Assembly: GCA_964016885.1 (NCBI GenBank)
Contig: OZ024751.1
Span: 35,464,001 to 35,528,000, forward strand
Reading direction: 5' to 3'
Length of the DNA: 64,000 nucleotides
From: Eledone cirrhosa
Taxonomy: Eukaryota
A program made the translations under genes and the position numbers. Of the stretch, positions 1,217 to 56,779 are shown piece after piece; position 1 is the stretch's first letter, and each line of letters begins with the position of its first letter. The notes under the pieces were generated by a model. The model was not told where the DNA came from. It worked only from the letters and a program-made list of their open reading frames with translations, and did not search any database.

Positions 1217-1585
1217 CGGTTCTTATATATTTGATATATATTTATCCTTATCGAGCCCTCTTTGGATTTTAGTCTTTAAATTTATTATTATTACTATATA
1301 TTATATATATATTATATATATATATATATTATATATATATTATATATATATATATAAGCTAATATCTTCAAACTTTGAGCAGTCAGTGTATGTAAAAGAC
1401 TTTGTTTATTTGTTCCTATTAACAAAATACGTGTGCACTGATTATATAATAAACATAATTATAAATTACTGCAACAGTTTGAACACCTAACCTTTATTGT
1501 ACGCAATCATTTCTTAATGAGTTTGGTCTCAAAATATTTGTCTACCTACACACATAGTTTAGATGGAACAGTTATGAACCAGCAT

Positions 1586-1962
1586 TATGTGGGATGGCAG
1601 TATCGGTAGAGGGTCTGACGCTATGCTTTTCAGCAAAGAGTTACGCCCCTTAATGGTTTGCGTTCAAATCCCGCCGAGGTTAACTTTGCCTTTCATCCTT
1701 ACGGGGTCGATAAAATAAAGTACCAGTAATGTATTGGGTTATTGCTGGCCTTGTGCCTAAAGTAGAAACAATTATGTGGGATGGCAGTATCGGTAGAGCG
1801 TCAGATGCCATATTTTGCAGCATAGAGTTACGGTCCTTTATGATCTGAGTTCAAATCCCGCCGAGGTTAACTTTGCCTTTCATCCTTACGGGGTCGATAA
1901 AATAAAGTACCAGTAATACACTAGCATAATTGCTGGCCTTGTGCCAAAAGCAGAAACAGTTA
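1586..1962 (+). mobile_element. Two tandem tRNA-derived SINEs with Meta/Sauria-like core
   Basis: Each unit (1586-1772, 1773-1962) has an A-box-like TGGCAGTATCGG, B box GTTCAAATCCC and core gccgaggttaactttgcctttcatccttacggggtcgataaaataaagtaccag. Confidence 0.85.
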
Positions 1963-2082
1963 TTGATAGATGAACCAAAACAGAAACGGTTCTGTATGAG
2001 CAAGACATGGTCATTTGATCTGACTTGTCTCTCAACGGGACATGTATATATATGTATATATATATATATCTGTATATATATA

Positions 2083-4124: not shown

Positions 4125-4228
4125 TAGGAAAAGAGTCAGGACTCTTTTCCTATTACCCACTCTACTACCCTAAGTATTGAGTACTCTGGTGCGTTAAGAT
4201 CCACCTGGCTCCTTACCACATTTCCTTC

Positions 4229-4231
<3 letters not shown>
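4125..4231 (+). mobile_element. Family A (TA)n-inserted mini-element with short 5' fold-back
   Basis: taggaaaagagtc-ag-gactcttttccta hairpin, then the shared body ending ccttcgtt(TA)n; homologous to 5526, 18302, 19022, 40651. Confidence 0.85.
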
Positions 4232-4412
<181 letters not shown>

Positions 4413-4995
4413 CTAAAAGGTGATGTGTCAGCATGGCCGCAGTTTTTTTATATATATATATATAGACTGCGGCCATGCTGGAACACCACCTTTACTCGGA
4501 AGCTGGTGATTGAACTGCAGCTCATCTGCCTTCATCACAAGAATAAAGCCGTTTACCACTTGAAAGGATATCACCACGGTTACTAAGGGGTTTCATCTTC
4601 CCCAATTTTGAAATCAGAGAGATCTTTCTCTTAGACAACCAACCAAGGCTAACAAGTGAACTCTGTCCACCAATTGTTTGTTTATACACTATTAGATGAC
4701 CGTTGACCTCCTTGAGTTCCTCTACCCTTTAACAGGTTTTCTTTTTCATCCCGTAATGTGTCCCAAAACCACCCTCGCTACCAAGTTGCACTGGTGACCT
4801 GGTCAGGTGTAGTGTTAGCTGGACATATTCCAATTCCTGTAAATTATCTCTTCTAATTACATGACTGAAAATAATCAGATAATGCCTACAAATAAAGGTC
4901 TAAATCTTATCAATGTTGGTTTATCAAAAACTATATTTAATGTTGACTAATGGATATCTCCCTGACACACGCACACACAAACACAAATATATATA

Positions 4996-5071
<76 letters not shown>

Positions 5072-5194
5072 GGAAGTGAGTTTTATTGTAGTTCAATAAA
5101 GCAATGCAGATATCGGATAAGAAGCACTCTACAGTTTGTAGGACTGGAGTATACATAATATATAAGATCAAAAGATGGTTAAATGAGTTCCATG

Positions 5195-5265
5195 TATTTT
5201 ATTATGCGCATTTCAAAAACAAATATCATCATGCAATAACATTTGTGTTTTCAGCAGATAAAATA
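5195..5265 (-). ncRNA. Type I hammerhead ribozyme, core mutated to CTGCTGA
   Basis: Reverse complement of 5379-5449 with A6>C. Confidence 0.65.
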
Positions 5266-5378
5266 GGACATGATATGAAGGTTAAAAACACTTGTGGATA
5301 GTGCAGTTTTAAATCAACATATGTTGATTTAAAACTGCACTATCCACAAGTGTTTTTAACCTTCATATCATGTCCTCC

Positions 5379-5449
5379 TATTTTATCTGATGAAAACACA
5401 AATGTTATTGCATGATGATATTTGTTTTTGAAATGCGCATAATAAAATA
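5379..5449 (+). ncRNA. Type I hammerhead ribozyme
   Basis: TATTTTAT-CTGATGA-long stem II-GAAA-TGCGCA-TA-ATAAAATA; 8-bp perfect stem I, palindromic ATGCGCAT stem III. Confidence 0.88.
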
Positions 5450-5525
5450 CATGGAACTCATTTAACCATCTTTTGATCTTATATATATATATTTATATAT
5501 TTATATATATATATATATATATTTA

Positions 5526-5720
5526 TAACGAAGGAAATGTGGTAAGGAACCAGGTGGACCATAACGCACCAAAGTACTCAATACTTAGGGTAGTAGAGTG
5601 GGTAATGGGAACGAGTAGGACCCCGACGGCAGAACTCAAGCCGTTTCGACGGCTAATTCAGTTCAGAATTAGCCGTCGAAACGGGTTGAGCTCAGCCGTC
5701 GGGGTCCTACTCGTTCCTAT
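5526..5720 (-). mobile_element. Family A mini-element with 3' half of a hammerhead and ~52-bp fold-back
   Basis: Hairpin 5608-5717; both strands read stem-GAAA-CGG..loop..CCG-TC-GGGGTCC; CTGANGA absent. Confidence 0.85.
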
Positions 5721-18301: not shown

Positions 18302-18367
18302 ACCCTAAGTATTGAGTACTCAGGTGCGTTATAGTCCACCTGGTTCCTTACCACACTTCCTTCGTTA
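18302..18367 (+). mobile_element. Family A mini-element, 5'-truncated
   Basis: accctaagtattgagtactc...ccttcgtta(TA)n. Confidence 0.85.
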
Positions 18368-18392
18368 TATTATATACTATATATATATATAT

Positions 18393-18992: not shown

Positions 18993-19021
<29 letters not shown>

Positions 19022-19023
<2 letters not shown>

Positions 19024-19138
19024 ACGAAGGAAATGTGGTAAGGAACCAGGTGGACCATAACGCACCAAAGTACTCAATACTTAGGGTAGTAGAGTGGATA
19101 ATAGGAACAAGTAAGATCGGGGTCTTACTTGTTCCTAT
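19022..19138 (-). mobile_element. Family A mini-element with fold-back at the predicted cleavage site
   Basis: ataggaacaagtaaga-tc-ggggtcttacttgttcctat. Confidence 0.85.
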
Positions 19139-40650: not shown

Positions 40651-40653
<3 letters not shown>

Positions 40654-40838
40654 ACGAAGGAAGTGTGGCAAGGAACCAGGTGAACCATAACGTACCAGAC
40701 AACTCGATACTATGGGTAGTAGAGTGGGTAATAGGAGAAGAGTCAAGACCCGAGTCAAGGAGAAGAGTCAAGACCCCATATTATCGAGTTGTCTGGTACG
40801 TTATGGTTCACCTGGTTCCTTGCCACACTTCCTTCGTT

Positions 40839-40840
<2 letters not shown>
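40651..40840. mobile_element. Family A mini-element, head-to-head inverted pair
   Basis: 40651-40716 vs 40775-40840; long arm ends agaccc/agacccc. Confidence 0.85.
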
Positions 40841-43708: not shown

Positions 43709-43864
<156 letters not shown>

Positions 43865-43969
43865 AGTACAATAAAGCAATGCAGATATCGAATAAGTATC
43901 ACTCTACAGTTTGTAGGACTGGGGTATAAATAATATATAAGATCAAAAGATGGTTAAAAGAGTTCCATG

Positions 43970-44040
43970 TATTTTATTATGCGCATTTCAAAAACAAATA
44001 TCATCATGCAATAACATTTGCGTTTTCGTCAGATAAAATA
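43970..44040 (-). ncRNA. Type I hammerhead ribozyme
   Basis: TATTTTAT-CTGACGA-stem II-GAAA-TGCGCA-TA-ATAAAATA on the minus strand. Confidence 0.88.
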
Positions 44041-44111
44041 GGGAGACATGATATGTTGATTTAAAACTGCACTATTCACAAGTGTGTTTTAACCTTCATA
44101 TCATGTCTTCC

Positions 44112-44182
44112 TATTTTATCTGACGAAAACGCAAATGTTATCGCATGATGATATTTGTTTTTGAAATGCGCATAATAAAATA
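44112..44182 (+). ncRNA. Type I hammerhead ribozyme
   Basis: Same motif on the plus strand, intact core. Confidence 0.88.
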
Positions 44183-44212
44183 CATGGAACTCTTTTAACC
44201 ATCTTTTGATCT

Positions 44213-44354
<142 letters not shown>

Positions 44355-52856: not shown

Positions 52857-55800
52857 CACTGACTACTGAACACACTCACTACACACTGACTACATACTGA
52901 CTACACACTGACTACACACTAACTACACACTGACTACACACTCACTACACACTGACTACACACTGACTACACACTGACTACACACTGACTACACACTGAC
53001 TACACACTGACTACACACTGACTACACACTAACTACACACTGACTACACACTAACTACACACTGACTACACACTCACTACACACTCACTACACACTCACT
53101 ACACACTAACTACACACTCACTACACACTGACTACACACTGACTACACACTGACTACACACTGACTACACACTGACTACACACTCACTACACACTGACTA
53201 CACACTGACTACACACTCCCTACACACTGACTACACACTGACTACACACTGACTACACACTGACTACACACTGACTACACACTGACTACACACTAACTAC
53301 TCACTGACTACACACTCACTACACACTGACTACACACTGACTACACACTGACTATACACTGACTACACACTAACTACACACTGACTACACACTCACTACA
53401 CACTGACTACACACTGACTACACACTGACTACACACTGACTACACACTGACTACACACTGACTACACACTGACTACACACTAACTACACACTGACTACAC
53501 ACTAACTACACACTGACTACACACTGACTACACACTGACTACACACTGACTACACACTAACTACACACTAACTACACACTAACTACACACTGACTACACA
53601 CTGACTACACACTGACTACACACTGACTACACACTAACTACACACTGACTACACACTCACTACACACTGACTACACACTGACTACACACTGACTACACAC
53701 TGACTACACACTGACTACACACTGACTACACACTCACTACACACTGACTACACACTGACTACACACTGACTACACACTCACTACACACTGACTACACACT
53801 GACTACACACTAACTACACACTGACTACACACTGACTACACACTGACTACACACTGACTACACACTAACTACACACTGACTACACACTCACTACACACTC
53901 ACTACACACTCACTACACACTAACTACACACTGACTACACACTGACGACACACTGACTACACACTGACTACACACTGACTACACACTGACTACACACTAA
54001 CTACACACTGACTACACACTGACTACACACTAACTACACACTGACTACACACTGACTACACACTGACTACACACTGACTACACACTGACTACACACTCAC
54101 TACACACTGACTACACACTGACTACACACTAACTACACACTCACTACACACTGACTACACACTAACTACACACTGACTACACACTGACTACACACTAACT
54201 ACACACTGACTACACACTGACTACACACTGACTACACACTGACTACACACTGACTACATACTGACTACACACTCACTACACACTCACTACACACTGACTA
54301 CACACTGACTACACACTAACTACACACTAACTACACACTGACTACACACTGACTACACACTAACTACACACTAACTACACACTGACTACACACTGACTAC
54401 ACACTCACTACACACTCACTACACACTGACTACACACTGACTACACACTAACTACACACTGACTACACACTGACTACACACTGACTACACACTGACTACA
54501 CACTGACTACACACTAACTACACACTGACTACACACTGACTACACACTGACTACACACTAACTACACACTAACTACACACTGACTACACACTGACTACAC
54601 ACTGACTACACACTGACTACACACTGACTACACACTGACTACACACTGACTACACACTGACTACACACTCACTACACACTGACTACACACTGACTACACA
54701 CTCACTACACACTGACTACACACTAACTACACACTGACTACACACTGACTACACACTGACTACACACTGACTACACACTGACTACACACTCACTACACAC
54801 TCACTACACACTGACTACACACTCACTACACACTCACTACACACTGACTACACACTGACTACACACTAACTACACACTAACTACACACTAACTACACACT
54901 GACTACACACTGACTACACACTCACTACACACTCACTACACACTGACTACACACTCACTACACACTCACTACACACTGACTACACACTCACTACACACTC
55001 ACTACACACTGACTACACACTCACTACACACTCACTACACACTAACTAGACACTGACTACACACTCACTACACACTCACTACACACTCACTACACACTCA
55101 CTACACACTGACTACACACTGACTACACACTCACTACACACTGACTACACACTCACTACACACTGACTACACACTAACTACACACTGACTACACACTGAC
55201 TACACACTCACTACACACTGACTACACACTGACTACACACTGACTACACACTGACTACACACTAACTACACACTAACTACACACTGACTACACACTGACT
55301 ACACACTGACTACACACTGACTACACACTGACTACACACTCACTACACACTCACTACACACTCACTACACACTGACTACACACTCACTACACACTGACTA
55401 CACACTAACTACACACTGACTACACACTAACTACACACTAACTACACACTGACTACACACTGACTACACACTAACTACACACCGACTACACACTGACTAC
55501 ACACTAACTACACACTGACTACACACTGACTACACACTAACTACACACTAACTACACACTAACTACACACTGACTACACACTCACTACACACTCACTACA
55601 CACTCACTACACACTGACTACACACTCACTACACACTGACTACACACTCACTACACACTCACTACACACTCACTACACACTGACTACACACTCACTACAC
55701 ACTGACTACACACTAACTACACACTGACTACACACTCACTACACACTCACTACACACTCACTACACACTAACTACACACTGACTACACACTCACTACACA

Positions 55801-56779
55801 CCCACTACACACTGACTACACACTGACTACACACTGTCTACACACTAACTACACACTGACTACACACTGACTACACACTCACTACACACTCACTACACAC
55901 TGACTACACACTGACTACACACTGACTACACACTAACTACACACTGGCTACACACTGACTACACACTGACTACACACTCACTACACACTCACTACACACT
56001 GACTACACACTGACTACACACTCACTACACACTCACTACACACTGACTACACACTAACTACACACTGACTACACACTAACTACACACTAACTACACACTG
56101 ACTACACACTAACTACACACCGACTACACACTGACTACACACTAACTACACACTGACTACACACTGACTACACACTAACAACACACTGACTACACACTGA
56201 CTACACACTGACTACACACTGACTACACACTGACTACACACTCACTACACACTGACTACACACTGACTACACACTAACTACACACTGACTACACACTGAC
56301 TACACACTGACTAAACACTCACTACACACTCACTACACACTGACTACACACTGACTACACACTGACTACACACTAACTACACACTGACTACACACTAACT
56401 AAACACTGACTACACACTGACTACACACTAACTACACACTGACTACACACTGACTACACACTAACTACACACTGACTACACACTGACTACACACTGACTA
56501 CACACTGACTACACACTCACTACACACTGACTACACACTAACTACACACTGAATACAGACTAACTACACACTGACTACACACTGACTACACACTGACTAC
56601 AGACTGACTACACACTAACTACACACTGACTACACACTCACTACACACTGACTACACACTGACTACACACTGACTACACACTGACTACACACTAACTACA
56701 CACTGACTACAGACTAACTACACACTGACTACACACTGACTACACACTGACTACACACTGACTACACACTGACTACACA
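52857..56779. repeat. 11-bp satellite CTACACACT(G/A/C)A, ~3.9 kb, ~355 units
   Basis: Continuous 11-bp period; variation almost confined to one position. Confidence 0.98.

What the first reader, a model, noticed from the sequence alone, without database searches (positions are those of the whole stretch)
5069..5483. Twin-polarity hammerhead palindrome whose arms co-vary within each insertion
Copies at 5069-5483 and 43859-44216 have a plus arm with the same start (atatgttgatttaaaactgc) and the same end (ttttgatcttata, a TATA microhomology with the target). At three positions the two arms of one copy match each other, not the other copy: ctg(a/c)Tga vs ctgaCga, aaacAcaaat vs aaacGcaaat, aactcAttt vs aactcTttt. 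So one arm was copied from the other at or after each insertion, from a fixed 5' end. Inference: hairpin-primed second-strand synthesis (or arm-to-arm conversion). The product has a ribozyme on both strands, as in viroid-like RNAs; a read-through transcript would form long dsRNA that sequesters the ribozyme.
Basis: partly seen in the sequence, partly recalled or inferred. Interest (0 to 1): 0.8.

Follow-up and report, generated by a model that had tools for sequence, protein, structure and literature searches.

The report
Two-armed Penelope retroelement stumps
The two DNA hairpins are short mirror-image insertions of the end piece of a very abundant Penelope-type jumping gene, an already described layout, and thousands of sister copies suggest that each arm was likely copied separately from the element's RNA up to a probably capped start, not one arm from the other.

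Summary
The palindromes, the hammerhead motif and the three arm-matching sites are real. They are not a viroid-like element. Each is a minimal head-to-head insertion of the terminal repeat of a Hydra-type Penelope-like retroelement (794-aa RT + endonuclease ORF found elsewhere in the genome). Inverted arm, one-sided tail and opposite-strand hammerheads are published. The three sites are common family variants; arms agree within a locus genome-wide (1.8% vs 5.7% across loci). Hairpin copying cannot be the general route: in 28 of 66 tailed/tail-less pairs neither arm contains the other, and a few loci join two different haplotypes. The fixed start is real: 4,157 arms begin there (control 236), half preceded by an extra G, as for a capped RNA. 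Best model: both cut target strands prime reverse transcription at two sites about 95 nt apart, the copies run to the RNA's 5' end and join by microhomology. One locus of 113 carries an A-to-I-like editing scar, so read-through hairpins do form and can re-insert whole. No RNA data were available. This scan found the same layout, the extra G and edited hairpins before on other DNA; my paper searches did not find the mechanism in print.

The parts
5069..5322 (-). Copy 1, tailed arm (element positions +1 to about +257)
5069..5160 (-). Copy 1, one-sided tail (~95 nt) between the two 3' end sites; in full-length copies it runs on into the 5' leader and ORF
5195..5265 (-). Copy 1 minus-strand type I hammerhead motif, core changed to CTGCTGA (predicted inactive)
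5319..5483 (+). Copy 1, tail-less arm (+1 to about +165); centre CATATG shared with the other arm
   Evidence: 795 loci share this centre
5379..5449 (+). Copy 1 plus-strand type I hammerhead motif: stem I 5379-5386/5442-5449, CTGATGA 5387-5393, GAAA 5430-5433, palindromic TGCGCA, predicted cut after 5441
   Evidence: read from sequence
43859..44055 (-). Copy 2, tailed arm, 5'-truncated at about +50; tail lacks its last ~16 nt
43970..44040 (-). Copy 2 minus-strand hammerhead motif, core CTGACGA
44050..44055 (+). Copy 2 junction GATATG: 6-nt microhomology between the truncated arm and extra G + first five element bases
   Evidence: 140 exact matches to the 24-nt junction pattern, not all of this type
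44051..44216 (+). Copy 2, tail-less arm (+1 to about +165)
44112..44182 (+). Copy 2 plus-strand hammerhead motif, core CTGACGA 44120-44126, predicted cut after 44174
4988..5068 (.). (TA)n tract flanking copy 1; similar tracts follow 5483 and flank copy 2 on both sides

Best explanation
The two palindromes are minimal head-to-head insertions of the terminal repeat of a Penelope-like retroelement, and their arms were likely made by two separate reverse-transcription events primed from the two cut strands of a (TA)n target. Shown: the arms are the 3' end of a ~3.6-kb unit with a 794-aa RT-endonuclease ORF; two-armed insertions almost always pair one end at about +165 with one at about +259; about half of all arms begin at one base (+1), often after an extra G; the arms of a locus nearly always carry the same haplotype. 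Inferred: +1 is the capped 5' end of a sense RNA; the enzyme nicks both target strands; one primer starts at +165 and one at +259, usually on the same RNA or on RNAs of one donor; each cDNA runs toward the cap; their 3' ends anneal by microhomology (ATAT for copy 1, GATATG for copy 2) and are filled in. A hammerhead on both strands is a by-product of copying one stretch twice in opposite directions. A minority of palindromes are later transcribed through, edited as dsRNA and re-inserted whole.
For: Element identity: arms run on 5' into 3' UTR and ORF in most copies and 3' from the tail into the ORF in full-length copies; ORF motifs. Pairing rule: 143 of 153 pairs are one tail-less plus one tailed arm (loci pooled from several biased queries); 66 of 70 in the set chosen only for a +1 start. 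Fixed start: 4,157 arms with a non-template base before +1, 4,254 running on upstream, 236 at control position +9, 425 around the predicted ribozyme cut. Extra G: 2,062 of 4,157; where the partner arm does not explain base -1, G in 22 of 39 by script or 19 of 33 after re-sorting six loci by eye (P=0.004 against 1/3); L150 and L225 have it on both arms. An extra G marks cap copying in L1 (PMC11702581, passage). Independent templating: 28 of 66 pairs where neither arm contains the other, 15 tail-only; long tail-less arms with short tailed partners; L238, L157, L243 join two haplotypes. Shared donor: 93 of 113 pairs differ at 0-1 of 20 diagnostic sites, against 13% of cross-locus pairs. An Anolis PLE cuts and extends both strands, starts at two internal sites flanking the tail, uses uncut RNA and is predicted to be a dimer (PMC11167929).
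Against: No RNA data, so the cap and start site are inferred. None of 9 copies whose repeat runs into the ORF begins at +1 (4 run further upstream, 5 start inside), which a single mRNA start at +1 does not explain. 38 of 66 pairs, copy 1 among its type, are also compatible with fold-back at the self-complementary CATATG. Eight CAACATAT-G-ATATG junctions have a G that could be the partner's templated position 0 and were left out of the G test. The own partner is the closest opposite arm in only 45 of 113 loci (many near-identical relatives). 8 of 113 pairs differ at 3 or more diagnostic sites, and some of those sites are CpG, so decay can mimic discordance. In Anolis initiation was at sites not homologous to the target, whereas here both ends abut TA-like sequence and cannot be placed exactly.
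Confidence: 0.7

Rival explanations
1. Hairpin-primed second-strand synthesis: one cDNA runs from the tail end to +1, folds back at CATATG, copies itself and anneals to the target at the TATA-rich +165 site (the first reader's idea; close to the self-priming proposed in PMC3846280, there on an antisense template).
For: 38 of 66 pairs have a complete tailed arm and a partner contained in it; 795 perfect CATATG centres; high within-locus identity.
Against: 28 of 66 pairs, and copy 2, cannot arise this way; tail-less arms occur alone (11 of 86) and as kilobase-long arms, so +165 is a priming site in its own right; extra G on both arms (L150, L225); discordant haplotypes. The extra G sits at the sense 5' end, against an antisense template.
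Confidence: 0.12
2. The palindromes spread as units (a non-autonomous hairpin element copied from read-through RNA), and arm identity is inherited.
For: L134 has 25 of 27 changes as T>C on one strand across both arms with the tail almost spared: a whole palindrome passed through an edited RNA. The copy-2 junction recurs. L056 and L058 share junction, haplotype oddities and flank.
Against: 25 loci with the copy-2 junction fall in 16 haplotypes with mostly matching arms; allele frequencies are the same on both sides; partner breakpoints scatter from +1 to +237; only 1 of 113 loci is edited.
Confidence: 0.1
3. Arm-to-arm gene conversion after insertion homogenises the arms.
For: 6 variants are shared by both arms of one locus and seen in no other sampled locus.
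Against: 247 arm-private differences remain (52 gap-free or gapped columns aside, 25 of them from L134) against 17 shared; both window copies keep arm differences.
Confidence: 0.05
4. Assembly or read-polishing artefact.
For: Palindromes next to long (TA)n are hard to assemble; no contig of the public runs spans the whole copy.
Against: Thousands of loci obey one asymmetric rule; arms differ from each other; contigs of four public runs show joints from variable partner breakpoints to 44047-44053 in 13 of 15 listed rows (one study, possibly the same sample as the assembly).
Confidence: 0.02

Closest known systems
EN+ Penelope-like element insertions with inverted pLTR and one-sided tail (Arkhipova et al. 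2013, PMC3846280, passages and abstract; Craig et al. 2021, PMC8557442, passages and sections 10-11)
   Same: Head-to-head inverted 5'-truncated copy, tail on one arm only, partial tandem upstream of the ORF, palindromic junctions, AT-rich targets, start site inside the pLTR.
   Different: Tail is ~95 nt, not 30-40. A base-exact start with extra G and a strict one-tailed/one-tail-less rule are not stated in the passages read. PMC3846280 explains the palindromes by self-priming on an antisense template; the data here favour two primers on sense RNA.
Hydra clade of C-terminal EN+ PLEs (PMC8557442, section 11)
   Same: DKT, CxCX5C linker, no CCHH, CxxC and CxH near the C-terminus, hammerhead present, (TA)n targets.
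   Different: RWI in place of RWK; unit ~3.6 kb against 'generally <3 kb'; many thousands of copies. No tree with named Hydra proteins was built.
PAc Poseidon element of Anolis (Frangieh et al. 2024, PMC11167929, parts 1-2 of 4)
   Same: Two internal start sites that bound the tail; both strands cut and extended; uncut RNA as template.
   Different: Other clade; tail 30-40 nt; the paper leaves second-strand synthesis and joining open.
PLE minimal hammerheads (Cervera and de la Pena 2014, PMC4209133, parts 1-2 of 4)
   Same: Type I, long helix II, small palindromic helix III thought to need a dimer; pairs 100-700 bp apart on opposite strands already noted in Schistosoma.
   Different: Helix II here is about 16 bp; cleavage untested.
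L1 twin priming (recalled, no call) and cap-derived G at full-length L1 5' junctions (PMC11702581, passage)
   Same: Two primers on one RNA, inverted join by microhomology, extra G.
   Different: L1's two cDNAs cover different parts of the RNA; here they overlap and give a palindrome, and both start sites are fixed.
Non-LTR retrozymes and viroid-like RNAs (10.64898/2026.07.22.740005, part 1 of 5)
   Same: Short, non-coding, type I hammerhead, PLE-derived.
   Different: Retrozymes are head-to-tail tandems with ribozymes on one strand; these are head-to-head single insertions with no sign of circle or RNA replication.

Membership tests
EN+ Penelope-like element | Single ORF with RT and C-terminal GIY-YIG-type endonuclease | tested here: met
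   L089: open 794 aa with GASDS, YRDD and IYECKV...TYFG. Read by motif; Pfam (five partial ORFs) and PDB gave no hit.
EN+ Penelope-like element | pLTR: same repeat before the ORF and at the 3' end | tested here: met
   L085, L089, L099, L103; 3' copies.
EN+ Penelope-like element | Inverted 5'-truncated copy and one-sided tail | tested here: met
   143 of 153 pairs; tail ~95 nt.
EN+ Penelope-like element | Hammerhead motif in the pLTR | tested here: met
   Core conserved in 111-113 of 113 arms at every fixed position, only N7 varies; stems I and II in folds (z -1.2 and -1.9, not significant alone). No Rfam hit.
EN+ Penelope-like element | Target-site duplication | tested here: inconclusive
   Both ends lie in (TA)n; no empty site found among the loci held.
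Hydra clade | DKT, CxCX5C linker, no CCHH, CxxC and CxH motifs, (TA)n targets | tested here: met
   DKT 123, CNCPAKNKC 653, one Cys only inside the GIY-YIG core, CNLC 753, CLH 781; AT-only run of 10 or more beyond 84 and 86 of 113 ends; definition.
Hydra clade | RWK motif and length under 3 kb | tested here: not met
   RWI/RWT at 37; unit ~3.6 kb. The paper gives length as 'generally'.
Hydra clade | Placement in the RT phylogeny | not tested
   No named Hydra proteins were fetched; the clade label rests on motifs.
Active hammerhead ribozyme | Self-cleavage | not testable with these tools
   No peak of arms starting at the predicted cut (425) comparable with +1.
Non-LTR retrozyme / viroid-like RNA | Head-to-tail units with same-strand hammerheads, circular RNA | tested here: not met
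   Both window copies are single head-to-head insertions; circles not testable.

The most novel reading that the evidence does not exclude
Penelope-like elements insert by double priming: one enzyme complex nicks both target strands and starts two cDNAs ~95 nt apart on one capped sense RNA, the outer one displacing the inner, so every full event writes a palindrome. This would replace the published antisense self-priming guess. The palindromes then have a second life: host transcription makes dsRNA, editing marks it, and the element's RT writes the edited hairpin back into germline DNA.
Probability: 0.45. Interest if true: 0.6.

Novelty: new member of a known kind. Interest (0 to 1): 0.37.

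Why it matters
The layout is known and the two window copies are dead stumps. What is useful is the scale: one genome holds thousands of minimal insertions whose ends can be read to the base. How PLEs make their tandem and inverted structures is called undefined in PMC8557442 and left open in PMC11167929. These copies name the two start sites, the likely RNA 5' end and the joining microhomologies, and an open 794-aa ORF exists, so double priming against fold-back can be tested in vitro with a 260-nt RNA. The edited locus shows that such hairpins are transcribed in the germ line and can fix RNA edits in DNA.

Tried and rejected
Rfam: no hit at gathering score; only generic hairpin matches at E<=10. 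Pfam on five partial ORFs and PDB: no hit. RNA runs: no RNA holder listed; this says nothing on expression. Empty-site search to tell whether (TA)n pre-exists or is added: none found among held loci. Ribozyme cut as source of the fixed end: rejected, the fixed end is at +1, 123 nt upstream, and the cut site shows 425 matches over four positions including point changes. Splice acceptor at +1: upstream reads TTTTCAT, not AG, and no common leader is joined; rejected. C-to-G variant in a donor as source of the G: none of the 39 G loci continues with upstream sequence. Neptune clade, my first guess: dropped on the motifs. Searches were superseded (output cut; duplicates not removed); counts come, except the L111-L125 junction rows read. 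A cluster of partner breakpoints at +154 to +169 (6 of 43) may mark collision with the inner primer, but TA microhomology explains it as well. No tree was built; distances and site concordance were used instead. Paper searches for PLE plus twin priming, start site, extra G and recent structures listed nothing that states this mechanism; most subscription papers are outside the library, and no supplements were read, which may hold junction data (PMC11167929, PMC8557442).

Full report
Observation. Both palindromes are present as described. The plus arms run 5319-5483 and 44051-44216. Each minus arm carries an extra ~95-nt tail. Copy 2's minus arm stops at about element position +50, so it has the tail but not the first 49 bases, while the plus arm has those bases but no tail. 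Copy 1's minus-strand hammerhead core is changed (CTGCTGA). The motif is a type I hammerhead with an 8-bp stem I, CTGAYGA, a long stem II, GAAA and the palindrome TGCGCA (read from sequence; folds). Rfam does not score it, but its core is kept in 111-113 of 113 arms while 20 columns of the repeat vary between subfamilies.

What it is. The window lies in a 3.0-Gb animal genome. Most genomic copies of the arm continue upstream into a 3' UTR and a reading frame. In full-length copies the tail continues into a leader and the ORF. L089 encodes 794 open residues with RT motifs and a C-terminal endonuclease. DKT, CxCX5C, absence of CCHH, CxxC, CxH and (TA)n targets match the Hydra clade of Penelope-like elements (PMC8557442 section 11); RWK reads RWI, the unit is ~3.6 kb, and no tree was built. 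The window copies are thus the shortest form of a general two-armed insertion: of 20 regions of 10 kb around copies, 14 show an inverted arm joined head to head, with lengths from tens of bases to kilobases. This layout, with a one-sided tail, is published (PMC3846280; PMC8557442), as are hammerhead pairs on opposite strands 100-700 bp apart (PMC4209133).

Do arms co-vary? Yes. In 113 de-duplicated pairs with 60 or more shared columns (of 153 pairs; loci pooled from several queries, so not a random sample), arms differ by 1.8% within a locus and 5.6-5.8% across loci, whether same side or opposite side. 93 of 113 pairs differ at 0-1 of 20 diagnostic sites; 13% of cross-locus pairs do. So co-variation needs only a shared donor. 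Conversion is not continuing: 247 columns differ between arms and 17 carry a shared rare variant, 6 of them seen nowhere else.

Is the 5' end fixed? Yes. 4,157 arms have a non-template base directly before ATATGTTG, about as many as run on upstream (4,254). A control at +9 gives 236 and the predicted ribozyme cut 425. Half of the 4,157 have G there (2,062). I examined 86 distinct insertions from the first 100 listed matches (5 not fetched). Where the partner arm does not explain base -1 it is G in 22 of 39 by script, or 19 of 33 after re-sorting six loci by eye (P=0.004 against one third). Eight ambiguous G junctions were left out. L150 and L225 have the G on both arms. Partner arms also tend to stop at GATA words, which would pair with a cDNA ending in CATATC; this explains why copy 2's GATATG junction recurs in 16 haplotypes. 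An extra G marks copying of the cap in L1 (PMC11702581). +1 is the A of TTCATA, an initiator-like word (motif recalled). Against: none of 9 ORF-joined copies starts at +1, so longer RNAs are also used, and no RNA run was listed.

How is the second arm made? Of the 86, 70 have an inverted partner, and 66 pair an end near +165 with one near +259. Either arm may be the complete one. In 28 of 66 the tail-less arm is complete and the tailed arm is cut short; 15 of these hold little but tail. Fold-back of one cDNA cannot give them, since the tail-less arm has no tail to copy and the tailed arm lacks the rest. Tail-less arms also stand alone (11 of 86) and as long arms. L238, L157 and L243 join two haplotypes, though some of these sites are CpG. 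The other 38 pairs, copy 1's type included (795 such centres), fit either route. The simplest single account is double priming: both target strands are cut, one primer starts at +165, the other at +259, both run toward the cap, and the ends anneal. The Anolis element cuts and extends both strands and starts at two sites that bound its tail (PMC11167929). PMC3846280 proposed self-priming on an antisense template; a G at the sense 5' end argues against that here. Steps shown: end positions, pairing rule, extra G, haplotype sharing. Steps inferred: cap, two nicks, same RNA, strand displacement, end joining.

dsRNA. A read-through transcript of copy 1 is predicted to be one long hairpin that leaves no hammerhead fold. 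One of 113 loci, L134, has 25 of its 27 changes as T>C on one strand across both arms, with a single change in the tail, inside a small stem. This is the pattern expected of A-to-I editing of a hairpin RNA later reverse-transcribed whole. So some palindromes move as units, and unedited cases of this would be invisible to the test.

Artefact. Contigs of four public runs show joints from variable breakpoints to the +1 position (13 of 15 listed rows). They come from one study and may be the assembly's own sample.

Verdict. A real feature and a new member of a known kind. The mechanism read from the junctions did not turn up in my paper searches, but this scan noted the same layout, pairing rule, extra G and edited hairpins on other DNA. 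I had the pairing rule and the G count before seeing those notes; they are not independent support. Papers seen: PMC11167929 and PMC4209133 parts 1-2 of 4; PMC8557442 passages and sections 10-11; PMC3846280 passages and abstract; PMC11702581 passages; 10.64898/2026.07.22.740005 part 1 of 5; no supplements.

Noticed in passing
window 5521-5720; relatives at 4147-4237, 18302-18369, 19017-19116, 40652-40751, 40782-40839: A second, unrelated hairpin-plus-tail family sits in the same (TA)n tract right behind copy 1. It has the same one-tailed inverted build and seems to hold only the GAAAC half of a hammerhead core. 48 of the loci held carry it.
   Followed up: partly
L134 (G000:C3:112216892-112219915), 1300-1680: Palindrome of this family with 25 T>C changes on one strand in both arms, an A-to-I-like scar fixed in DNA.
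   Followed up: yes
L169, L201, L244, L252, L162: Junctions hold short repeated copies of the first 7-16 element bases, several starting with G, as if the RT re-copied the RNA's 5' end several times before joining.
   Followed up: no
L043:395-1291 and L034:2145-3593: Other, diverged Penelope-like families with the same motif set (about 65% DNA identity for L043) lie beside this one.
   Followed up: no
L085:610-705 and the tails in the window (5069-5160 minus): The tail holds a short open frame ([11 protein letters not shown]..., 30 codons) upstream of the main ORF; possible upstream ORF, untested.
   Followed up: no
L056 and L058: Two loci on different contigs share junction, odd haplotype and right flank: a duplication or a move with flank.
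   Followed up: no
window 52870-56779: 3.9-kb array of an 11-bp unit, 355 copies, 94% matches; other tandem arrays of 30-187 bp are scattered in the window.
   Followed up: no
window 1584-1963: Two tandem copies of a 187-bp SINE-like repeat that also flanks several fetched loci; resembles an octopus SINE from recall, not tested.
   Followed up: no
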